Of a stretch of 64,000 bases of DNA, positions 32,017 to 48,036 are shown one piece after another. The translations under genes and the position numbers were made by a program. The notes beneath the pieces are model-generated. The model was not told the DNA's origin. It searched no databases and saw only the letters and a list, made by a program, of their open reading frames with translations. Numbering within the stretch: position 1 is the first letter of the stretch; the number at the start of each line of letters is the position of its first letter. The stretch comes from Bacteroidota bacterium (GTDB taxonomy: Bacteria > Bacteroidota > Bacteroidia > Bacteroidales > Lentimicrobiaceae), in NCBI GenBank assembly GCA_043806115.1, contig JAZDHI010000059.1, positions 24,349-88,348 on the forward strand. The letters run 5' to 3'.

Positions 32017-33018
32017 CTATTCCGAATACATCCGCATCATCTCTTCGGCTTTTTCAACCATGGCTTTAGAACCGACAAAGAAAGGTTCTCTTTGGTGAAG
32101 TTCGGTTGGTTGAATGTCAAGGATGCGTTCAAAACCGGTTGAAGCTTTACCTCCGGCCTGTTCAGCAAGAAAAGCAATGGGATTGCATTCATAAAGCAAC
32201 CTCAGCTTACCGTTGGGGTTTTTATGGGTACCGGGGTAAATATATACGCCTCCAAGAATCAGATTACGGTGAAAATCAGCTACCAGAGAGCCAATATAAC
32301 GGGTTGTATAGGGTCGCAATGTTGAAGGATCATCCTGCTGACAGTATTTAATGTATTGTTTTACCCCTTCATGAAAATAGATATAATTTGCTTCATTGAT
32401 AGAATAAATACTCCCGCCATCGGGTATCTTCATGTCAGGATGAGAAAGAAAAAAAAGCCCGACCGAAGGATCGAGGGTAAAGCCGTTTACCCCAAATCCG
32501 GTAGAATAAACCAGAATGGTAGAAGTTCCATAGATTACATATCCGGCAGCAATCTGCTTTGTGCCGGGTTGAAGAAGGTCCTGAACTGTGCCGGGTCCTG
32601 ATTCACTAACTCGCCGGTAAATTGAAAAAATCGTGCCGATCGGAACATTTACCTCAATGTTCGATGATCCGTCCAGCGGGTCCATGGCTACCACGTACTT
32701 ACCTTTCTGTGAAAAAGCATTATCATAGGTATACAGTTCGTCATTTTCTTCTGAAGCCACTGCGCAAACCATACCTCCGTGCCGCATAGCAGCCAGAAAA
32801 CAATCGTTGGCAAAAACATCCAGTTTTTTCTGATCTTCCCCCTGTATGTTTTGTTGTCCGAAATATCCATTGATGTCGGCCAGCCCTGCTTTGTTAATTT
32901 CACGGTTCACCAGCTTGGCAGCAATGCCGATATCGTTTAATAACCGGGTAAACTCACCGGAAGCATAGGCAAAGTCGGCTTGCTTTTCATTGATAAATTC
33001 TACAAGGGTTTTCATCAT
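32017..33018 (-). CDS. fbp: Fructose-1,6-bisphosphatase class 1
   Basis: [52 protein letters not shown]. Confidence 0.96.
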
Positions 33019-33027
33019 ATTTAGGAA

Positions 33028-33075
33028 GTTTCAGGGTTATCGAGTTGCAGGGTTCCAAAGTTACAGGGTTCCTGA
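33028..33075. repeat. Six in-register 8-mer repeats (GTTnCAGG), left flank of four-helix-bundle cassette 1
   Basis: GTTTCAGG GTTATCGA GTTGCAGG GTTCCAAA GTTACAGG GTTCCTGA. Confidence 0.8.
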
Positions 33076-33084
33076 GTCCGTTAA

Positions 33085-33128
33085 TTGAGCGGTAGTGGTT
33101 GAGCGAAGTCGAAACCAGCCGAAACCAC
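33085..33128. repeat. Self-nested REP-like repeat of the TGAGCGnAGYCGAAAC type
   Basis: TTGAGCG[GTAGTGGTTGAGCGAAGTCGAAACC]AGCCGAAACCAC: one full copy inside a split second copy. Confidence 0.55.
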
Positions 33129-33174
33129 CCTTGGTTCAGGGATACAGAACTACCTGATTAATAATATGAAAATC

Positions 33175-33567
33175 TTAAATCTGTTTCTTCTTGTGGCCGT
33201 GATAATCAGATCTGTATAAATAATTGATAAATCCCAGTATCTGACCTGACAGATTAAAGCAATCTTCATGTAATTCTTTATATTTTACTTCACCAACGTA
33301 TTGAGCTTCGTATGTTCTGTGAACCTGAGATCTTGTTTCACCTGATGATCCTTTGGAATAATACAGGAAATTAAGGAATTCCTTCTTGCCAACCCTTTCA
33401 AACCCTTCGGCAATATTATCCATAACCGAACCACTCGAATCAAGGATCTGATTATTTAAACCAAAATCTTTTGAAAGTAAAGTGGTTTCAGCAATCTACC
33501 TGACCTTCTTACAAAATTCCCTGGCTTTCTGCCAGATTTCAAGTTCTTCAAAATGTCTGATCGTCAT
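33175..33567 (-). pseudogene. Four-helix-bundle protein (TIGR02436 / PF05635 type) interrupted by an in-frame TAG at codon 24
   Basis: From ATG 33567: MTIRHFEELEIWQKAREFCKKVR*IAETTLLSKDFGLNNQILDSSGSVMDNIAEGFERVGKKEFLNFLYYSKGSSGETRSQ...; family motifs FEELEIWQKA, NIAEG, EF..FL..SKGS..E. TAG at 33496-33498; the ORF track shows only the 3' 82 aa. Confidence 0.88.
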
Positions 33568-33671
33568 ATTCGAAAATATGTCTTTAAACAATTTGATTAT
33601 CAAACTTCCCTTGAAAAAACCCGGTAAGTTAAGGTGAAATGATTAGCGATACAACAGACATGCATTCAAGT

Positions 33672-33856
33672 AACTCTGAAACCTTGTAACCTTGTAACCT
33701 TGTGATAAAGAAACTTTACAGGCCTGTGGCATCGTTACACTTTTTGAATCAGAATTACAATTTTAAACTCAGTTAATCCGCAAAACACTATGCCGCCTGT
33801 AACTTTGAAACCCTGTAACCCTGAAACTTCAGAACCTTGTAAACAGGAAACCTTGT
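33672..33856. repeat. Two 8-mer arrays (AACCYTGW), right flank of cassette 1, reverse-complement orientation to 33028-33075
   Basis: 33672-33703: AACTCTGA AACCTTGT x3. 33801-33856: AACTTTGA AACCCTGT AACCCTGA AACTTCAG AACCTTGT AAACAGGA AACCTTGT. Confidence 0.8.
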
Positions 33857-33873
33857 TACAAGAACAAATATAT

Positions 33874-33881
33874 TAAATTTG
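33874..33881 (+). promoter_or_regulatory. -7 box (TAAATTTG) for the aspartate kinase gene
   Basis: Exact TAnnTTTG 19 bp before ATG 33901. Confidence 0.55.
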
Positions 33882-33900
33882 TACTACCAAACATCGTGGT

Positions 33901-35163
33901 ATGAAAGTTTTCAAATTTGGAGGGGCATCCGTCAAAGATTCAGCAGCTGTTAAAAACGTCAGGGATATTTTACTCCGTTTTCCCGGCGAATCCCTCTGTA
34001 TCATCATTTCAGCCATGGGGAAGACGACCAATGCCCTGGAGAAAATAGCAGAAGCATGGGTCAAGCAGGATGTCAGTGCATTCAGCCTGCTCTCAGAAAT
34101 TGAAAATTATCACCAGAAAATTGCAAATGAACTGATGCACAGCAAGCTAAGCCCGGTAAAATTGATTATTGACGAAGTACGGCTGATGCTTCAATCTGCC
34201 CCGCCTGAGCTTCCCGATGCAGCCTACGACAGGATCGTTTCACAGGGTGAGCTTTTATCTACCTCCATTGTCAGTGCATACCTCAACCATGAAGACATCC
34301 AAAACAGGCTGCTGGATGCAAGGCATTGTGTTATTACCAACGAGTGCTTCAGAAACGGACGGATATCGTGGAATGAAACCGGAAACCGGATTCAACAGGC
34401 ATTTGCCATTGAAACTGATGATGAAATTCCTGCGATAACCATTACACAGGGCTTTATTGGAAGTACTTCTTCCGGATATCCTGTCACCCTGGGCCGGGAA
34501 GGGTCGGATTTCAGTGCAGCTATTTTTGCCTGGGCGCTAAATGCCAGTGAAATGGTTATCTGGAAAGATGTTCCCGGTGTGCTCAATGCGGATCCCCGGT
34601 ATTTCAGTGATACTGTAAAACTAGACAGGATCAGTTACCGTGATGCCATTGAACTGGCCTATTTCGGCGCATCGGTTATCCACCCCAAGACAATCCAGCC
34701 GCTGCAGAACAAAAACATTCCCCTGTATGTAAGATCTTTTGCTGAACCGGAAGAACCCGGCACGCTGATCAGTAACTTCACCGATGAACACAAACAGATA
34801 CCCTGTTATATTTTCAAACCCGGTCAGGTTCTGATGAGTATCTCGGCCAAAGATTTCTCATTTATAGCAGAAGACGGATTGCACAACATTTTCGGGCTGT
34901 TATCGCATATGGGCATCCGCACAAACCTGATGCAGAATTCCGCCATTAGTTTCTCCATTTGTATTGATGAAAATCCAGGCAAACTTCACCGTCTCATTAC
35001 CGCACTCAGCGGTGACTTCAGGGTAAAATACAATCAGGGACTCGAATTGATCACCATCCGGCATTACAACCAGAGAACCATTGATAAAGTGGTAAATCAA
35101 CGTAAAATCCTGCTGGAGCAGAAGAGCAGGCTCACCGTTCAACTCGTGGTTGAAGGGTCCTGA
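33901..35163 (+). CDS. lysC: Aspartate kinase
   Basis: VFKFGGASV, IISAMGKTTNAL, SQGELLS, TQGFIG, TLGREGSDFSA, IWKDVPGVLNADPR, ELAYFGASVIHP. Confidence 0.93.
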   Translation: MKVFKFGGASVKDSAAVKNVRDILLRFPGESLCIIISAMGKTTNALEKIAEAWVKQDVSAFSLLSEIENYHQKIANELMHSKLSPVKLIIDEVRLMLQSAPPELPDAAYDRIVSQGELLSTSIVSAYLNHEDIQNRLLDARHCVITNECFRNGRISWNETGNRIQQAFAIETDDEIPAITITQGFIGSTSSGYPVTLGREGSDFSAAIFAWALNASEMVIWKDVPGVLNADPRYFSDTVKLDRISYRDAIELAYFGASVIHPKTIQPLQNKNIPLYVRSFAEPEEPGTLISNFTDEHKQIPCYIFKPGQVLMSISAKDFSFIAEDGLHNIFGLLSHMGIRTNLMQNSAISFSICIDENPGKLHRLITALSGDFRVKYNQGLELITIRHYNQRTIDKVVNQRKILLEQKSRLTVQLVVEGS

Positions 35164-35320
35164 AACTACTGAACATAATCAAAAGAGATTTGCTTGTCCC
35201 CGATCCGGTATGACGACATCCCCGGAGAGCAGAAATGTTTTGCAATCCTCCAGGGTAGTTTTGCTGAATCAATGCTGTCTTTACGATAAGTATGCAGACA
35301 CTTTATCTTACTGAAATACC

Positions 35321-35328
35321 TATTTTTG
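35321..35328 (+). promoter_or_regulatory. -7 box (TATTTTTG) for the MFS gene
   Basis: Exact TAnnTTTG 22 bp before ATG 35351. Confidence 0.5.
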
Positions 35329-35350
35329 CCCCGAACAACATCGGAAAACC

Positions 35351-36643
35351 ATGAGCAAAACTGTTGAAGCAAAATCAGGCTACAAGTCATTCCCCCGTAA
35401 TTTCTGGACAGTTATAGTCATGGAATTCTTCGAGCGTGGCTCCTACTATGGGGTGATGTCGGTGCTATCCATCTACCTGATTATGTCTCCGGGTGAAGGC
35501 GGACTGGGCTTTTCAAAAGAGGGTGTCGGGGCAATCAAGAGTACCATCACACCCCTGCTCTATCTGCTTCCCATTCTTGCAGGCGCCCTGGCCGACCGTT
35601 TCGGTTACCGGAGGACGCTTATGATGGCATTCACGGTTATGAGCTCGGGTTACTTCCTCACCAGCCTGTCGTCATCCTACAGCCTGGTATTTCTCAGTCT
35701 GATCCTTATGGCTGTCGGCGCAGGATTCTTCAAACCGGTTATCTCCGGAACCATTGCGAGGGTTACCGATGAAAGCAATTCCACCCTGGGATTCGGTATC
35801 TATTATTGGTCGATCAACCTGGGTGCTTTCATCTTCCCGTTGATTCTGGTACCATTTCTGAAAGGCATCGGATGGAATTACATTTTCATCATGGCTTCCG
35901 TTGGCACAGGTTCCATGTTTTTACTTAACCTGTTTGTCTATAAAGAACCTCCCCGCCCGGCGAGTACCAAGCCCCTTTCCGAAGTACTGAAAGGCATCCT
36001 GATGGTACTGAAGGACTATCGTTTTGTGCTGATGATCGTGGTTTACTCCGGATTCTGGATATTGTATTTCCAGATGTTCGATACCGTACTCTGGTATCTG
36101 AAGGAATATATGGACATGACACCGGTAAATAATTTTGTCAACCAATTCCTGGGCCTCTTTGTGGAGTACCCCTCCTGGAAATTCGATACCGAACATGTGA
36201 CCGTCATCAATGCCGGGGCCATCATTGGCCTGCAACTGATTGTATCATCCATTGTTAAGAAGACCCCTGCCCTACCTACGATGATCGTGGGCATAGCCAT
36301 GGGAACCCTGGGGATGGGCATCCTCGCCATCTCAACCTATGCCTGGGTATTTATTGCCGGTCTGATTGTCTTCTCCATCGGGGAAATGACGGCCCATCCC
36401 AAGTTTATCTCCTATATAGGTCTGATTGCCCCACCTGATAAAAAAGCCCTTTACCTTGGCTATTCATTCCTTTATGGGGTGATCGGCAGCGGTATTGGCG
36501 GCATACTGGGTGCAACCCTCTATGTAAAGTTTGTTGATGAAATGGGCAGGCCGGGGATGTTGTGGTTTATCTTCAGCATGATCGGGGTGGCCACCATTAT
36601 CGGGTTGCTGCTGTTTAACCGGTATCTGAAACCGAAACAATAA
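35351..36643 (+). CDS. MFS transporter, POT/PTR peptide-transporter-like
   Basis: MEFFERGSYYG (ExxER motif), GALADRFGYRR, GAGFFKP, FGIYYWSINLGA; about 12 hydrophobic segments. Confidence 0.85.
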   Translation: MSKTVEAKSGYKSFPRNFWTVIVMEFFERGSYYGVMSVLSIYLIMSPGEGGLGFSKEGVGAIKSTITPLLYLLPILAGALADRFGYRRTLMMAFTVMSSGYFLTSLSSSYSLVFLSLILMAVGAGFFKPVISGTIARVTDESNSTLGFGIYYWSINLGAFIFPLILVPFLKGIGWNYIFIMASVGTGSMFLLNLFVYKEPPRPASTKPLSEVLKGILMVLKDYRFVLMIVVYSGFWILYFQMFDTVLWYLKEYMDMTPVNNFVNQFLGLFVEYPSWKFDTEHVTVINAGAIIGLQLIVSSIVKKTPALPTMIVGIAMGTLGMGILAISTYAWVFIAGLIVFSIGEMTAHPKFISYIGLIAPPDKKALYLGYSFLYGVIGSGIGGILGATLYVKFVDEMGRPGMLWFIFSMIGVATIIGLLLFNRYLKPKQ

Positions 36644-36785
36644 TTAATTTTTTTATACCCTTGGACACGGCATGTCATATCCATGCCGGTTTAAAACCCC
36701 GGGCTTTAAAGCAAACAAATCAACCTTGTGCCGATAACCAGCTACCAATAACCATCGATACTAATTATATAACCATAAATCTTTC

Positions 36786-36793
36786 TAAATTTG
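36786..36793 (+). promoter_or_regulatory. -7 box (TAAATTTG) for pfk
   Basis: Exact TAnnTTTG 55 bp before ATG 36849. Confidence 0.45.
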
Positions 36794-36848
36794 CTCTTCG
36801 CCCGAAAATCGGGTTTCCAATAACAGCAAACTAAAATCCCTTTATACA

Positions 36849-38066
36849 ATGAAAGGTTCTATTGCGATTCTGGCAGGCGGTGGCCCTGCTCCCGGCATCA
36901 ATTCAGTAATTGCTTCTGTTGCCAAGGTTTTTATTAAAGATGGGTTCAGGGTGATCGGATTGCACGAAGGGTACAAAACACTCTTTACCGACAAGCCCAA
37001 TATGATGGAGATCGATTTTGCCATGGCCGATCGCATTCACAACCAGGGCGGTTCGTTCCTGATTATGAGTCGCCACAAGCCAAAAGATGCCGACTTCAAC
37101 ACGGGATTTTTTGTCAACAACAATGTAAAACTGCTGGTAACCATCGGTGGTGACGATACCGCCTCCACGGCCAACCGGATCTCCAAGTTTCTGGCAGCGA
37201 ATAATGTTAAAATCCAGAATATTCACGTCCCAAAAACCATTGACAACGACCTGCCCCTGCCCGATGGCATTCCCACTTTCGGTTACCAGAGTGCCAAACA
37301 GGAAGGTGTCCGTCTCGCCACCACTGTATATGAAGATGCCCGTACCAGCGGCAACTGGTTTGTGGTTTCGGCCATGGGCCGCGAAGCAGGCCATTTAGCC
37401 TTCGGTATCGGCGCCGCCTGCCACTACCCCATGATCATCATTCCTGAGATGTTCAACAAAGCCGAAGTCACTTTCGACCGTATCCTCCGGCTGGTGATCT
37501 CTTCGATGATCAAACGCAGGATCCTTGGCATCAGCTATGGAGTTGCGATTATCAGCGAAGGGGTTTTCCACTTTATGACCGACCAGGAGATCACCTCTAC
37601 AGGCATTCAGTTCTCATTTGATGACCATGGACACCCTGAGCTTGGAAATGTTAGCAAAGCCCATATTTTCAACACCTTACTTCAGAAGAAAAACAAAGAA
37701 ATCGGACTCAGCGTGAAAAGCCGTCCCGTTGAACTCGGCTATGAACTGCGCTGCGTGCAACCCATCGCGTTCGATATGCTATATTGTGCCCTGATGGGCA
37801 TCGGGGTAAAACATTTGTTTGACCAGGGCCTTACCAGCTGTATGGTAGTGAGTGGTCCTAACGGTGACATCAGCCCGCTCTATCTGAAAGATGTGGAAGA
37901 TGAACATGGTAAGGTTAAGCCACGTCTCGTTAATATGGACGGACAAAAATCAAAGATGGTTTTCGAAGACAGCCTTCAATACATAGAACCGGCCGATTAT
38001 GAAGCCGCCCGTAAGTATGTTCCGGATCCGGAGAATTATGATTTCAGGAGGATTCTGAATTGGTAA
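36849..38066 (+). CDS. 6-phosphofructokinase family enzyme, probably PPi-dependent
   Basis: GGGPAPGIN, TIGGDDT, PKTIDND, MGR, ELGYELRC. Asp in GGDD plus Lys in PKTIDND is the PPi-type signature. Confidence 0.88.
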   Translation: MKGSIAILAGGGPAPGINSVIASVAKVFIKDGFRVIGLHEGYKTLFTDKPNMMEIDFAMADRIHNQGGSFLIMSRHKPKDADFNTGFFVNNNVKLLVTIGGDDTASTANRISKFLAANNVKIQNIHVPKTIDNDLPLPDGIPTFGYQSAKQEGVRLATTVYEDARTSGNWFVVSAMGREAGHLAFGIGAACHYPMIIIPEMFNKAEVTFDRILRLVISSMIKRRILGISYGVAIISEGVFHFMTDQEITSTGIQFSFDDHGHPELGNVSKAHIFNTLLQKKNKEIGLSVKSRPVELGYELRCVQPIAFDMLYCALMGIGVKHLFDQGLTSCMVVSGPNGDISPLYLKDVEDEHGKVKPRLVNMDGQKSKMVFEDSLQYIEPADYEAARKYVPDPENYDFRRILNW

Positions 38067-38073
38067 TTGGTGA

Positions 38074-38150
38074 AGAGCGCAGATCACAGGAAAAAGGGCG
38101 AAGAGTTGAGAGCATAGGGCACAGGGCTATGAGTGATGGGTGAAAAGCAC
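38074..38150. repeat. About 11 in-register 7-mers (AGRGCnn), left flank of four-helix-bundle cassette 2
   Basis: AGAGCGC AGATCAC AGGAAAA AGGGCGA AGAGTTG AGAGCAT AGGGCAC AGGGCTA TGAGTGA TGGGTGA AAAGCAC. Confidence 0.7.
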
Positions 38151-38233
38151 CGGGACCAGTGAGCGCAGTGAGTCAGAACAAAGAGTCCTGATCATACAGA
38201 TCAAAGTTGGGAATACAAAGCAGGCACTCGTTG

Positions 38234-38592
38234 TTAATAAAGCGGTGTTTTGCGAAAATTGGTTATTTTCCTGCTCAAAATGAGTAACGCCCGATAAAGT
38301 ACATGCCTGTTCTCTGGGGTGATGATATCTCTTCGTTCAAAAATGATCAGAATGTAGGCGCATTCATATACTGAACGTCGGGCAATGTTCAGGAATTTTG
38401 CAAAATCTCAGTCAGAAAAAGAACCAGAACCTTCTGCAATATTATTTGAAATACATAAGACCGCTGCACTTGATTGTTCAGCAAATTTGAACAACCTTTT
38501 TAATCGGTTGAATCAGCACAATCAAATAGGTGATCAGAACAGGCGATAGCTTCTTTCCGGATGTCCTAATTTTCAAATCTGAAATCATCCAT
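38234..38592 (-). pseudogene. Heavily decayed four-helix-bundle protein gene (absent from the ORF track)
   Basis: Hand translation from ATG 38592: MDDFRFEN*DIRKEAIACSDHLFDCADSTD [frameshift] KRLFKFAEQSSAAVLCISNNIAEGSGSFSD*DFAKFLNIARRSVYECAYILIIFERR...LSRKITNFRKTPLY*. Keeps FRFE, SNNIAEG and F..FL.IARRS..E motifs. Confidence 0.85.
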
Positions 38593-38640
38593 GGTGATGG
38601 TATTTACTGCATTATAATATGATTTTTCAAGTTCTTACAA

Positions 38641-38675
38641 TGTGCTCAGCGCCCTGAGCCCTTTGCCCTGCGCCA
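38641..38675. repeat. Five 7-mers (nnnGCYC), right flank of cassette 2, reverse-complement orientation to 38074-38150
   Basis: TGTGCTC AGCGCCC TGAGCCC TTTGCCC TGCGCCA; abuts the stop codon at 38678. Confidence 0.7.
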
Positions 38676-38677
38676 AA

Positions 38678-39628
38678 CTACCCTGGCTTCCGCAACGACT
38701 CAATCTTCTCTACCAGCACTTTCGCCATTTTATAACTCGATTCATGCGTCCAGCCTGCGATATGGGGTGATAAAATTACTTTATCGCTGCCAATCAGCCG
38801 TTTAAACGAATCCGGAAGTCTGGCAGCATCCAGGTTTTCGAACGAGAGCTTTTCATATTCAAGAACATCCAGGGCAGCTCCCATAACCCTTCCCTTATCA
38901 ATGGCATCCATCAGGGCTGCAGTATCCACACACTGTCCGCGGGCTGTATTCACCAGGTAAACCGGCTTGCTGAATTTTTCAAGATAGGATTGATTTACCA
39001 AATGTCGGGTTTCATCGGTCAGGGGGATATGCAGGCTCACCACATCAGCATCGCTGAAAACCTCTCCCATCTGCACCTCTTTCACATACAATCCGCTGAA
39101 GCCGGCTTTGTATTTGTCGTAGGCAATGACATTGGCCCCGAAACCACTCAGTTTTCCGGCAAAAGCGCTTCCCGTATTTCCATAACCGATGATGGCAATG
39201 GTTTTACCCTGAATCTCTGTTCCACGGTTCCCTTCCCTGATCCATCTACCATTGCGGACTTCAGCATTAACCCTGCAAAGGTGGTTAAAAAGTGAAAGCA
39301 GCATGCCAATGGCATGTTCTCCAACAGCATCGCGGTTCCCTTCCGGAGCATTCAGGCAAACAATTCCTTTTGATTCAGCATAGACCTGATCGATGTTCTC
39401 CATTCCCGCCCCGACACGTGCTATAAACTTCAGTTTAGGAGCACTGTCAATGGCATCCCTGTCAATTTTTATTTTGCTCCTGATAACAATTCCTTCAGCT
39501 TCACCCGCCTGTGCCAGAATTTCATCACGATCCACCATGTGACTGTGAATGCAGGTAAAACCCAACCTTGTAAGTCCTTCATTAAGGAACGGATGGGCTG
39601 TATCGATAAATAAAACTGACGGTTTCAT
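38678..39628 (-). CDS. D-isomer 2-hydroxyacid dehydrogenase (SerA catalytic-domain-like)
   Basis: VIRSK, ARVGAGMENID, NAPEGNRDAVGEH, IIGYGNTG, VNTARG, ALDVLE.E, SPHIAGWT; start reassigned to ATG 39628. Confidence 0.88.
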   Translation of the reverse strand: MKPSVLFIDTAHPFLNEGLTRLGFTCIHSHMVDRDEILAQAGEAEGIVIRSKIKIDRDAIDSAPKLKFIARVGAGMENIDQVYAESKGIVCLNAPEGNRDAVGEHAIGMLLSLFNHLCRVNAEVRNGRWIREGNRGTEIQGKTIAIIGYGNTGSAFAGKLSGFGANVIAYDKYKAGFSGLYVKEVQMGEVFSDADVVSLHIPLTDETRHLVNQSYLEKFSKPVYLVNTARGQCVDTAALMDAIDKGRVMGAALDVLEYEKLSFENLDAARLPDSFKRLIGSDKVILSPHIAGWTHESSYKMAKVLVEKIESLRKPG

Positions 39629-39646
39629 AATGCCTGATTTTCGTAA

Positions 39647-39654
39647 CAAAGGTA
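39647..39654 (-). promoter_or_regulatory. -7 box (TACCTTTG) for the dehydrogenase gene
   Basis: CAAAGGTA on the + strand, 18 bp upstream of ATG 39628; supports the shorter start. Confidence 0.55.
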
Positions 39655-39762
39655 GGTAGCAACATCCAGAAACAAGCAACAATTATTGATGGTTTTAACT
39701 GCATTCCCCTGAATTGTCGTAACTTCGCCGGTCAATTCAGCAAAATAAAGAAAACTATTGAT

Positions 39763-47622: not shown

Positions 47623-48036
47623 CGGGTAGCTTTCATTGACTACTCACTTCTTAAGGTTCAGCCCTTCCCACGATGGTCGTATCATGGTACTATGGCTTCT
47701 GCTGACTTCTCACAGTAAATCTTATTTCAACCGTGCTTCATACGCTGTTTCAACACGTCTGTGAGATCTCCCGTGGTAAGACTAATCACTTTCCCTCCAT
47801 GTCCCCGCCACATTTACACTCCATTGTCTGTGTAGTTTTTGGACTTCGATTTGTTTTGCAATCTCATCCCATCGGAAGTGCCTGATGTGATTCGTATTCC
47901 TCGGGGCAGAGGTTTGCCTTGAGCTTCCTTCAGATTCCACCTCACGGTGGACACCCTTGCTTTTGGCTAATGGTTGGCAACTACAAACCCCCATAGTGGA
48001 CTTTCACCACCAAGTTATTAGTCATGCACGGCGCAC

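What the first reader, a model, noticed from the sequence alone, without database searches (positions are those of the whole stretch)
33028..38675. Recurrent cassette: four-helix-bundle (Avd-like) gene flanked by inverted short-tandem-repeat arrays
Seen: twice within 6 kb a TIGR02436/PF05635-type gene sits between housekeeping genes (fbp|lysC and pfk|dehydrogenase). Each has a tandem array on its left and the reverse-complement array on its right, and each cassette uses its own unit (8-mer GTTnCAGG versus 7-mer AGRGCnn). The two proteins are divergent, so these look like independent arrivals of one architecture rather than a local duplication. No transposase is present. Established: this family has no known function, is patchily distributed, and is structurally related to the nucleic-acid-binding Avd protein of DGRs. 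Inference: a non-autonomous mobile cassette whose inverted arrays act as ends (or fold the RNA/ssDNA into a long stem around the gene), with the protein recognising its own repeat unit. Best candidate here for an undescribed system.
Basis: partly seen in the sequence, partly recalled or inferred. Interest (0 to 1): 0.8.

Follow-up and report, generated by a model that had tools for sequence, protein, structure and literature searches.

The report
Four-helix-bundle gene inside inverted short-repeat arms
Two broken copies of a small gene from the family first seen inside ribosomal-RNA "intervening sequences" each sit between mirror-image arrays of 7- or 8-base repeats, and comparison with relatives shows that this gene-plus-arms package is gained, lost, moved and swapped between housekeeping genes as one unit.

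Summary
Both cassettes hold a PF05635/TIGR02436 gene on the minus strand, and both genes are pseudogenes. Each gene is bracketed by a tandem array and its reverse complement: 8-mers of the GTTNCAGG type in cassette 1 and 7-mers of the AGRGCNN type in cassette 2. These patterns occur nowhere else in the window.

The layout is general. In this genome 12 of 15 family members show both arms. In a class-wide sample, 22 of 30 loci score as inverted-flanked, against 1 of 57 controls.

Relatives have empty fbp|lysC and pfk|dehydrogenase junctions, or hold a different family member with a different unit. One cassette allele (67% amino-acid identity, different unit in both arms) lies between flanks that are 98-99% identical. 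Another cassette type shows reciprocal presence and absence at two sites.

Intact copies are under purifying selection. Paralogues within a genome are at most 74% identical and do not share arms.

About 360 solitary arrays in the genome draw on the same units as the cassette arms. So the arrays are not exclusive to the gene, but the inverted bracket is.

Best reading: an IVS-type hairpin cassette outside rRNA. Binding of the protein to its own repeat and cleavage by RNase III are inferred, not shown. No transposase, target duplication or recent burst of copies was found.

The parts
32017..33018 (-). fbp (fructose-1,6-bisphosphatase), left neighbour of cassette 1
   Evidence: PF00316 and PF18913. 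Its ATG lies 10 nt from the first repeat unit.
33028..33075 (.). Cassette 1, arm downstream of the gene: six 8-nt units of type GTTNCAGG on the + strand
   Evidence: Read directly from the sequence. Pattern hits fall at 33028-33067 on the + strand only. Inverted pairs I1-I4 link it to 33796-33842.
33087..33132 (.). Unrelated small hairpin / 10-mer repeat (GGTTTCGRCT type) lodged between the arm and the gene
   Evidence: Read from the sequence. Absent from the orthologous G016 cassette, which has about 15 octamer units there instead. Related 10-mer arrays and a related hairpin occur elsewhere in the genome.
33175..33567 (-). Cassette 1 gene: PF05635/TIGR02436 four-helix-bundle protein, 130 codons, pseudogene with one in-frame TAG at 33496-33498
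   Evidence: The G016 ortholog is intact and 85% identical, with dN/dS 0.29.
33671..33703 (.). Cassette 1, proximal block of the arm upstream of the gene: (AACCTTGT)x3 on the + strand
   Evidence: TRF array at 33680-33703, 100% matches. Pattern hit on the - strand.
33796..33860 (.). Cassette 1, distal block of the arm upstream of the gene: about eight units of CCTGWAAC, the reverse complement of the left arm
   Evidence: TRF array at 33796-33827. Pattern hits on the - strand. It pairs with 33028-33075 in the minimum-energy and centroid RNA folds, z = -4.3.
33901..35163 (+). lysC-type aspartokinase, right neighbour of cassette 1
   Evidence: PF00696.
36849..38066 (+). pfk (phosphofructokinase), left neighbour of cassette 2
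   Evidence: PF00365.
38069..38160 (.). Cassette 2, arm downstream of the gene: about 13 degenerate 7-nt units (conserved AG-R, four variable bases), starting 3 nt after the pfk stop codon
   Evidence: Read from the sequence. Periodic pattern gives 5 hits against 0.16 expected. AGRGCNN hits on the + strand.
38246..38554 (-). Cassette 2 gene: decayed PF05635/TIGR02436 pseudogene with several stops and frameshifts
   Evidence: HMM match of 63.6 bits with 4 stops inside. Three-frame translation. Pfam 59.5 bits on the C-terminal 88 aa.
38641..38676 (.). Cassette 2, arm upstream of the gene: 4-5 units GGCNNAG on the - strand, ending 2 nt from the dehydrogenase stop codon
   Evidence: AGRGCNN hits on the - strand at 38644-38676. 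It pairs with the left arm in the minimum-energy and centroid folds, z = -3.1.
38678..39682 (-). D-isomer-specific 2-hydroxyacid dehydrogenase, right neighbour of cassette 2
   Evidence: PF02826 and PF00389.

Best explanation
Each cassette is a decayed copy of a compact gene-plus-repeat module. The module is a PF05635/TIGR02436 four-helix-bundle gene lying between two inverted arrays of one 7- or 8-nt unit.

SHOWN.
- The module behaves as one heritable unit that fills a whole gap between genes.
- It is present, absent, or replaced by a non-orthologous member (with another unit) at the same junction in related genomes.
- It can sit at different junctions in close relatives.
- It is exchanged with breakpoints at its own edges.
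- Both arms change unit together as the protein diverges.
- Intact proteins are under purifying selection.
- Each genome keeps about 10-15 deeply diverged paralogues that do not share arms.

INFERRED.
- In the transcript, or in single-stranded DNA, the arms pair into a long stem with the ORF in the loop. This is the anatomy of ORF-bearing 23S rRNA intervening sequences, whose stems RNase III cuts. That would let the insert sit between host genes, or inside rRNA, with little harm.
- The Avd-like, probably pentameric protein recognises the conserved 4-5-nt core of its own unit on the G-rich strand. This would tie each protein to its arms and to the solitary arrays of the same unit elsewhere in the genome.
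- How a module first enters a junction is unknown. Later spread and swapping between relatives goes by homologous recombination in the flanking genes.

The two window copies are dead. Cassette 1 died recently (one nonsense codon, arms still good). Cassette 2 died long ago (gene and arms both eroded).
For: ARCHITECTURE.
- 12 of 15 family genes in this genome show both arms, and 2 more are cut by contig ends.
- The inverted-flank score is >=13 in 9 of 15 family genes against 3 of 300 control small genes.
- Among 3612 genes, 19 score >=14. Six of these are 4HB genes. Two more are bracketed by 7-nt arrays of unit families also used by 4HB cassettes (one adjoins a 4HB cassette). The rest are mostly terminator-like palindromes and A/T-rich matches.
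- In a class-wide sample, 22 of 30 loci score >=13 against 1 of 57 controls.

GAIN, LOSS AND REPLACEMENT.
- The fbp|lysC junction is filled only in G000, G016 and G007. It is empty (44-256 nt) in 11 other same-genus genomes, and in G034, from another family of the order.
- The pfk|dehydrogenase junction holds three different members with three different units in G000, G007 and G015. It is empty (28-160 nt) in five genomes.
- Non-orthologous occupants sit at the C29:4384 and C29:207 sites.
- At C59:152469 the flanks are 98-99% identical to G007 up to the last codons of the flanking genes. Between them the cassette is 67% identical in amino acids, with pS 0.92 and a different unit in both arms.
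- The GCAGTTG cassette sits at one site in G000 that is empty (125 nt) in G007. Its 75% relative sits at another site in G007 that lacks the gene in G000.

COVARIATION. Both arms switch from GGAGTAG to GAGTTGT, and from AAAGYTC to AAAGTAA, along with protein divergence.

SELECTION. dN/dS is 0.02-0.29.

STEM. The terminal arms pair in the minimum-energy and centroid folds, z = -4.3 and -3.1.

FOLD. pLDDT is 93. The top structural matches are 2RLD and 2GSC, followed by DGR Avd.

UNITS.
- 144 of 344 solitary arrays share an exact unit with a cassette arm, against a mean of 14.6 for shuffled units.
- Variation within unit families is concentrated at 1-3 positions (p from 1e-9 to 0.03 in 10 of 11 families).

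PRECEDENT. In the Coxiella IVS the same gene family sits in a 28-bp stem with tandem heptamers that RNase III cuts (PMC4990558).
Against: - No target-site duplication and no conserved terminal motif were seen at any filled/empty comparison.
- No enzyme is encoded in the cassette.
- No near-identical copies exist within a genome: the best true paralogue pair is 74% identical. So recent transposition is not seen, and most copies are syntenic among the three closest genomes.
- Arm-to-arm mismatches show no excess of G.U-compatible changes on the sense strand: 22 against 31, with 98 transversions. The arms also differ widely in copy number. Strict selection for RNA pairing is therefore not supported.
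- Most of the roughly 360 arrays are solitary. Unit families persist in genomes that lack the cognate gene.
- Covariation of protein and unit is also expected from simple co-inheritance.
Confidence: 0.55

Rival explanations
1. The repeats come first. Arrays of 7/8 nt are a host-wide class of intergenic repeats, like cyanobacterial STRR or Xanthomonas GGGNATC repeats, with their own role in transcript ends, insulation or G-quadruplex formation. On this view the four-helix-bundle gene is only a passenger that lands or survives best inside pre-existing hairpins, and the protein does not recognise the repeats.
For: - There are about 360 non-coding arrays, and only about 30 flank the gene.
- Array sites are largely conserved between G000 and G007: 17 are shared against about 2 expected.
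- G-rich arrays lie next to the upstream stop codon and C-rich arrays lie nearer the next start codon, as published for Xanthomonas and Nostoc (PMC4692102).
- Some junctions carry arrays of different units in different genomes without any gene.
Against: - Gene-less inverted pairs are rare: about 5 hairpins against about 300 solitary arrays. Ready-made landing pads are therefore scarce, yet 12-14 of 15 genes are bracketed.
- Both arms change unit in step with the protein.
- The gene moves with its arms: the same unit is found at different sites.
- Gene and arms are swapped together inside 98%-identical flanks.
- The arms erode once the gene is dead, as in cassette 2 and the G007 remnant.
Confidence: 0.2
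2. The genes are domesticated regulators. On this view each four-helix-bundle paralogue is a host nucleic-acid-binding factor whose flanking arrays are its own operators. The solitary arrays form its regulon. The modules are not mobile, and the presence/absence pattern reflects allele exchange by homologous recombination together with loss.
For: - Selection is purifying (dN/dS 0.02-0.29).
- There is one copy per unit type per genome.
- Solitary arrays use the same units as the cassette arms.
- Cassettes are interleaved in operons, with three in a carboxylase/acyl-CoA operon and three in a polysaccharide locus.
- Recombination breakpoints lie at the cassette edges.
- An arm-less copy is as conserved as a housekeeping gene (dN/dS 0.03).
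Against: - Pseudogenes are frequent: 2 of 15 in this genome, and more in G007.
- Distribution across the genus is patchy.
- Non-orthologous occupants, and even the opposite orientation, occur at the same junction.
- The same family lies inside rRNA intervening sequences, where no regulon is plausible.
- Unit families persist without the cognate gene.
Confidence: 0.15
3. The pattern is chance or plain microsatellite slippage around an ordinary small gene, or it is an Avd gene belonging to a diversity-generating retroelement.
For: The arrays vary in copy number between close relatives, as microsatellites do: 6 units against about 15 at the same arm. The protein fold resembles Avd.
Against: - Pattern counts are far above the shuffled expectation.
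- Control genes almost never have inverted periodic flanks.
- No reverse transcriptase and no template/variable repeat pair lie next to either cassette. The only RT-type element nearby is a group II intron about 9 kb away.
Confidence: 0.02

Closest known systems
ORF-bearing intervening sequences (IVS) of 23S rRNA (Coxiella burnetii; by citation also Leptospira and others), encoding 'S23p'
   Same: The protein family is the same (PF05635). The ORF sits in the loop of a long stem made by terminal inverted repeats. Tandem heptamers lie in the 5' arm (GACAGAT in Coxiella), and their copy number varies between strains. The ORF tends to decay. The element is patchy and apparently horizontally acquired, and no mobility enzyme is known (PMC4990558).
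   Different: These cassettes lie between protein-coding genes, not in helix 9, 25 or 45 of 23S rRNA. Here the arms are long degenerate arrays of 7- or 8-nt units, and each paralogue has its own unit. There are 10-15 paralogues per genome. RNase III cleavage has not been tested here.
Heptamer simple-sequence repeats of Xanthomonas and Nostoc (GGGNATC, GGGGAYT; STRR class)
   Same: Intergenic arrays of 7-nt units are abundant. A few units per array is usual. [quoted passage not shown] The arrays are transcribed (PMC4692102). The polarity found here is the same.
   Different: That work treats the repeats alone, as quadruplex formers, and reports no link to a gene family. Here many unit families coexist, including 8-mers. 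Most units cannot give four G-tracts. The arrays bracket a specific gene.
REP / RAYT systems (REPINs and their single-copy domesticated transposase)
   Same: This is a functional analogy only. A single-copy gene is flanked by inverted copies of a short repeat, the same repeat is dispersed through intergenic DNA, and there is one gene per repeat family.
   Different: The protein is a 120-aa four-helix bundle with no HUH/Y1 nuclease motif. The repeats are tandem arrays, not single palindromes. The match between gene and repeat family within a genome is incomplete.
Avd, the accessory protein of diversity-generating retroelements
   Same: The fold is the same four-helix bundle (TM 0.71-0.87 to 4DWL and 8UB7). 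Avd is a pentamer that binds RNA and the reverse transcriptase.
   Different: There is no reverse transcriptase and no template/variable repeat nearby. Sequence identity is about 11%.

Membership tests
PF05635 / TIGR02436 (23S rRNA IVS protein, four-helix-bundle protein) | Profile score above the curated cut-off | tested here: met
   TIGR02436 gives 97.1 and 61.1 bits (cut-off 24). PF05635 gives 98.6 and 59.5 bits (cut-off 33.8).
PF05635 / TIGR02436 (23S rRNA IVS protein, four-helix-bundle protein) | Four-helix-bundle fold like 2GSC and 2RLD | tested here: met
   The intact G016 ortholog of cassette 1 gives pLDDT 93 and four helices. Foldseek top hits are 2RLD and 2GSC (TM 0.73-0.90).
PF05635 / TIGR02436 (23S rRNA IVS protein, four-helix-bundle protein) | Pentameric assembly | not testable with these tools
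   Both PDB relatives have five chains per entry. No oligomer prediction was run.
ORF-bearing 23S rRNA intervening sequence | S23p-family ORF enclosed by terminal inverted repeats that can form a stem | tested here: met
   Searches show the arms. Searches show that the arms pair in the minimum-energy and centroid folds.
ORF-bearing 23S rRNA intervening sequence | Inserted in a 23S rRNA helix (9, 25 or 45) | tested here: not met
   Both cassettes lie between protein-coding genes. Rfam finds no rRNA in the window.
ORF-bearing 23S rRNA intervening sequence | Excised from the precursor by RNase III | not testable with these tools
Diversity-generating retroelement (Avd component) | Adjacent reverse transcriptase plus a template/variable repeat pair | tested here: not met
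   The neighbours are FBPase, aspartokinase, a POT/MFS transporter, PFK and a dehydrogenase. The only retroelement signal is a group II intron at 47661-47951.
Transposon / MITE | Target-site duplication and defined conserved termini | tested here: not met
   The filled/empty and allele alignments show none. The insert replaces the whole spacer from stop codon to start codon.
Transposon / MITE | Several near-identical copies in one genome | tested here: not met
   The best true paralogue pair is 74% identical in amino acids, and most pairs are below 50%.
REP/RAYT-like gene-repeat system | Single-copy gene flanked by inverted copies of a repeat that is also dispersed in the genome | tested here: met
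   An exact unit is shared by 144 of 344 solitary arrays, against 14.6 expected.
REP/RAYT-like gene-repeat system | HUH/Y1 transposase domain in the gene | tested here: not met
   Only PF05635 is found. There are no PADLOC hits of note.
Heptamer SSR class (STRR, GGGNATC) | Excess of 7-nt tandem arrays in non-coding DNA with the G-rich strand after the stop codon | tested here: met
   There are 256 non-coding period-7 arrays against 9 of period 6. For position and polarity.

The most novel reading that the evidence does not exclude
Four-helix-bundle (PF05635) proteins and tandem 7/8-nt arrays may form one genome-wide two-part system, comparable to RAYT and REP.

On this reading, each paralogue is the sequence-specific reader of one unit family, perhaps with one unit bound per subunit of a pentamer on the G-rich single strand. 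The protein would keep its own arms, and the dispersed arrays of that unit, homogeneous. It might also help to seed or move them.

Several known puzzles would then be faces of the same system: 23S rRNA intervening sequences, cyanobacterial STRR repeats, Xanthomonas GGGNATC repeats, and the roughly 360 intergenic arrays of this genome.

Paralogues would diverge, protein and arms together, so as to avoid cross-talk. This would explain why no two copies in a genome share a unit, and why anciently diverged cassette alleles persist inside nearly identical flanks.
Probability: 0.25. Interest if true: 0.9.

Novelty: new variant of a known kind. Interest (0 to 1): 0.7.

Why it matters
The origin and mobility of rRNA intervening sequences have been open questions since the early 1990s. 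So has the role of their S23p ORF. The excess of heptamer repeats in bacterial intergenic DNA is a separate unexplained observation. PF05635/TIGR02436 is a large family, multi-copy in most genomes of this class (94 of 121 sampled), with solved structures but no known function.

This clade ties the three puzzles together in a testable way:
- The gene nearly always carries inverted arrays of its own unit.
- The same units populate the rest of the genome.
- Natural filled, empty, swapped and relocated alleles exist among close relatives.

If the protein proves to read its own repeat, it would be a new kind of compact, diversifiable recognition module for nucleic-acid repeats. It could also give a mechanism for how such inserts live harmlessly inside operons and rRNA.

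Tried and rejected
1. Counting shared 8-mers between flanks was too noisy. About one shared word is expected by chance. I replaced it with an ungapped inverted-match score.

2. Single-linkage clustering of arrays chained unrelated units into one cluster of 210. Exact-dimer counts did not separate the periods. I replaced both with seed-based families.

3. RNAduplex on 340-nt flanks gave meaningless full-length duplexes and no difference between sense and antisense.

4. G.U asymmetry in arm mismatches was tested as a sign of RNA-level pairing selection. The counts were 22 sense against 31 antisense, with 98 transversions. This gives no support.

5. A strict one-to-one match of unit families to family genes within this genome does not hold. 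Several abundant families (AAAAAGT, AATGAGT, AAATTCTC) have their cognate gene only in G007 or G016.

6. I considered that the C-poor 5' arm exists to place stop codons in all three frames, since 7 and 8 are not multiples of 3. In a hand count of the units, 12 of 18 contain a stop. About 0.56 is expected from composition alone, so the count is not above composition.

7. A guessed orthologous region for the C19 site was wrong. BLAST then located the right region.

8. The DGR reading is rejected because no reverse transcriptase or template/variable repeats are present. A defence-system reading has no PADLOC support.

9. The repeat finder at seed 7 missed the cassette 2 arms. They appear only as a periodic degenerate pattern.

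Full report
WHAT IS IN THE WINDOW

Two PF05635/TIGR02436 genes lie on the minus strand between housekeeping genes.

Cassette 1 fills the 882-nt gap between fbp (32017-33018, -) and a lysC-type aspartokinase (33901-35163, +).
- Its gene (33175-33567) has 130 codons and one in-frame TAG at 33496-33498.
- On the fbp side there are six 8-nt units of type GTTNCAGG (33028-33075).
- On the lysC side the reverse complement appears in two blocks (33671-33703 and 33796-33860).
- A 24-nt pattern for the unit gives 6 hits in the window against 0.01 expected. The hits are on the + strand only on the left and on the - strand only on the right.

Cassette 2 fills the 611-nt gap between pfk (36849-38066, +) and a 2-hydroxyacid dehydrogenase (38678-39682, -).
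- Its gene (about 38246-38554) is broken by several stops and frameshifts.
- Its arms are degenerate heptamers. About 13 units lie at 38069-38160 on the + strand, and 4-5 units lie at 38641-38676 on the - strand.
- They are detectable only as a periodic pattern: 5 hits against 0.16 expected, and 7 against 0.37 expected.
- The arms start 3 nt after one stop codon and end 2 nt from the other.

Folded as RNA on the gene strand, both cassettes close their terminal arms into an outer stem in the minimum-energy and centroid structures (z = -4.3 and -3.1).

I add that both genes are pseudogenes and that cassette 1 carries a second, unrelated small hairpin repeat at 33087-33132.

IS IT MORE THAN CHANCE, AND IS IT SPECIFIC TO THE GENE?

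The assembly (5.1 Mb, 85 contigs) has 15 family members.
- Twelve show an array upstream and the reverse-complement array downstream, each with its own unit.
- Two more are cut by contig ends and show one arm.
- One (C24:61927) has none.

An ungapped inverted-match score between the two flanks reaches 13 or more in 9 of 15 family genes, against 3 of 300 control small genes. Of 3612 crude gene calls, only 19 reach 14.
- Six of these are family genes.
- Two are genes bracketed by 7-nt arrays of unit families also used by family cassettes (C42 DegT, which adjoins a cassette, and C22 peptidase).
- The rest are mostly terminator-like palindromes and A/T-rich matches.

In a sample of 30 loci from about 30 genomes spread over the class, 22 score 13 or more, against 1 of 57 shifted controls. 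Sixteen have tandem arrays of period 7 or 8 on both sides.

The arrays themselves are not confined to the gene.
- Non-coding DNA holds 256 period-7 and 139 period-8 arrays, against 9 of period 6.
- After removing overlaps and low-complexity units, this gives about 360 arrays in about 79 unit families, most of them solitary.
Arrays are common without the gene, but the inverted bracket at 250-900 nt spacing is nearly specific to it.

EMPTY SITES, REPLACEMENT AND RELOCATION

Loci returned by the genome search are not flipped for minus-strand matches. I allowed for this.

The fbp|lysC junction.
- It is filled in G000.
- It is filled in G016, with an intact gene that is 85% identical and has about 15 octamer units in the arm downstream of the gene.
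- It is filled in G007 by a decayed remnant with decayed arms.
- It is a 44-256-nt spacer without arrays in 11 other genomes of the genus, and in G034, from another family of the order.

The pfk|dehydrogenase junction.
- G000 has cassette 2.
- G007 has an intact member of a different clade (69% identical to G000 C42:54104), in the opposite orientation, with the 8-mer TTAGAGAC.
- G015 has a third member, with the 7-mer AATGATG.
- Five genomes have 28-160-nt spacers.

Other sites.
- Non-orthologous occupants with different units also sit at the C29:4384 and C29:207 sites.
- At C71:112300, G007 and G016 carry an 8-mer cassette where G000 has only a solitary heptamer array of another family.

The clearest case is C59:152469.
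- G000 and G007 are 98-99% identical in both flanking genes, up to the last roughly three codons of the upstream gene and from about the ninth codon of the downstream gene.
- Between these points the cassette is 67% identical in amino acids, with synonymous sites saturated (pS 0.92), and a different unit in both arms.
- The module is therefore exchanged as a block, with breakpoints at its edges.

Reciprocal presence and absence.
- The GCAGTTG cassette of G000 (C19:82395) lies at a junction that is a 125-nt spacer in G007.
- Its 75%-identical relative in G007, with the same unit, lies at another junction. In G000 that junction has no gene, only a degenerate GnnGTTG array.
- This pattern is what relocation, or two separate acquisitions, of one cassette type would give.

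WHAT ARGUES AGAINST A CLASSICAL TRANSPOSON

- No target duplication or conserved end motif appears in any comparison.
- No enzyme is encoded in the cassette.
- Paralogues within a genome are at most 74% identical, and usually below 50%.
- Most copies are syntenic among the three closest genomes.
- Movement, if it occurs, is rare. Much of the spread between relatives is by homologous recombination in the flanks.

THE PROTEIN

- The intact ortholog of cassette 1 folds as a four-helix bundle (pLDDT 93).
- It matches 2RLD and 2GSC best, and then the Avd pentamer of diversity-generating retroelements.
- Ortholog pairs give dN/dS of 0.02-0.29, so intact copies are functional proteins.
- The one arm-less copy is as constrained as lysC (0.03 against 0.04-0.07). 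It lies between a serA-like dehydrogenase and a DUF1015 gene.
- There is no reverse transcriptase or template/variable repeat nearby, and no meaningful PADLOC hit.

THE ARMS

Orthologous cassettes change unit in both arms together as the protein diverges. GGAGTAG in G000 and G016 becomes GAGTTGT in G007, and AAAGYTC becomes AAAGTAA. Members of one protein clade at unrelated sites share related units, namely GCGACTTAA, GCGAGGGA and TTAGAGAC.

Within unit families, independent variants concentrate at 1-3 positions and leave a core of 4-5 nt. The chi-square p ranges from 1e-9 to 0.03 in 10 of 11 families.

The two arms of one cassette are not collinear.
- They differ in copy number and at the wobble positions.
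- Their mismatches show no excess of changes compatible with G.U pairs on the sense strand (22 against 31, with 98 transversions).
- This fits a constraint on unit identity better than strict selection for base pairing. Arm-to-arm gene conversion could also keep the arms alike.

The element has a fixed handedness.
- On either strand the first arm is G-rich and C-poor, and the second arm is the reverse.
- This holds in 13 of 17 cassette types in the three genomes.
- In the class sample, 18 of 20 left arrays and 16 of 20 right arrays follow it.
- This polarity is symmetric under reverse complement, so it is a property of the element and not of gene orientation.

Solitary arrays follow the same rule. 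G-rich ones sit a median of 42 nt after the upstream stop codon, and C-rich ones sit nearer the next start codon. This matches the published pattern in Xanthomonas and Nostoc.

Solitary arrays use the same units as cassette arms: 144 of 344 match exactly, against 14.6 for shuffled units. Between G000 and 800 kb of G007, array sites are mostly shared (17 in both, 14 in G007 only, 9 in G000 only, out of 359 mapped spacers). Several sites carry different units in the two genomes.

READING

Shown:
- a gene-plus-arms module that is inherited, lost, swapped and found at new junctions as one unit;
- a functional protein in intact copies;
- concerted change of protein and arms;
- a shared unit repertoire with the genome's solitary arrays.

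Inferred:
- the arms pair in the transcript, as in rRNA intervening sequences, where RNase III cuts the stem;
- the pentameric Avd-like protein recognises the core of its own unit.

Unknown: how a module first enters a junction.

The window's two copies are dead. Cassette 1 died recently and cassette 2 long ago, and the arms of cassette 2 have eroded with its gene. That erosion argues that the arms have no host role independent of the gene.

COMPARISON WITH WHAT IS KNOWN

The nearest described thing is the ORF-bearing 23S rRNA IVS. These cassettes meet its features of anatomy but not its defining location. They are not part of a DGR. As an analogy of function they resemble a REP/RAYT system, but they lack the nuclease.

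I found no paper in the searchable library that links PF05635 genes to inverted 7/8-nt arrays outside rRNA.

Earlier notes of this scan describe the same layout in many genomes. I treated them as leads and re-tested the points I use. New here:
- the very high share of armed copies in this clade;
- the block swap inside 98-99% identical flanks;
- the reciprocal presence and absence of one cassette type;
- 8-mer as well as 7-mer units;
- the core-plus-wobble statistics;
- the reverse-complement-symmetric handedness.

LIMITS

- Gene calls are crude ORF picks.
- Unit families depend on a one-mismatch rule.
- The assembly breaks at arrays.

Noticed in passing
window 47661-47951 (-): Rfam finds group II intron domains (RF02001 at 144.8 bits, RF01998 at 51.8 bits). 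This is the only retroelement signal in the window and lies about 9 kb from cassette 2.
   Followed up: no
window 33087-33132; also G000 C45:3421-3778 and C12:33803-33991: There is a second small repeat class: 10-nt units (AGTCGAGACC / GGTTTCGRCT) and hairpins of type GGTGGTCTCGGCT...GACCACC. One copy is lodged inside cassette 1 and is absent from the orthologous G016 cassette.
   Followed up: partly
G000 C24:61888-62298 (outside the window): This is the only family member without arms. It is 93-98% identical in G007 and G016, has dN/dS 0.03, and lies between a serA-like dehydrogenase and a DUF1015 gene. It could be a domesticated or trans-acting copy.
   Followed up: partly
G000 C29:207-6004 and C42:49241-54421 (outside the window): Three cassettes are interleaved between the genes of an acyl-CoA dehydrogenase / carboxylase operon. 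Three more are interleaved in a polysaccharide-synthesis locus (DegT aminotransferase, sugar transferase). Counting the two cassettes in the window, eight of the 15 copies lie in three clusters.
   Followed up: partly
G000 C18:63331-63509, C36:118277-118555, C59:110865-111051, C34:112201-112609: These are gene-less inverted array pairs with 115-365-nt loops. The loops hold a further recurring hairpin of type GCCTGCC...GGCAGGC / CTGACGGCAGTCAG.
   Followed up: no
G000 contig ends (for example C70:157-600, C44:973-1400, C71:176336-176498): Sixty arrays lie at contig edges, and some contig ends are stacks of several different unit arrays. The arrays evidently break the short-read assembly, so counts of arrays and of family genes are lower bounds.
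   Followed up: no
G000 C59:150976-154093 compared with G007 C1:495827-499147: This region is 98-99% identical between the two genomes, while most syntenic flanks are 76-92% identical. Several G007-G016 cassette pairs have dS of 0.03-0.04 against 0.70 for lysC. The genomes of this genus are recombination mosaics.
   Followed up: partly
G000 C22:148404-149215: A 225-aa zinc-metallopeptidase-like gene is bracketed by inverted AAAGTTC-type heptamer arrays. Together with a DegT gene that adjoins a family cassette (C42:51520-52662), it is one of only two non-family genes with such a bracket.
   Followed up: no
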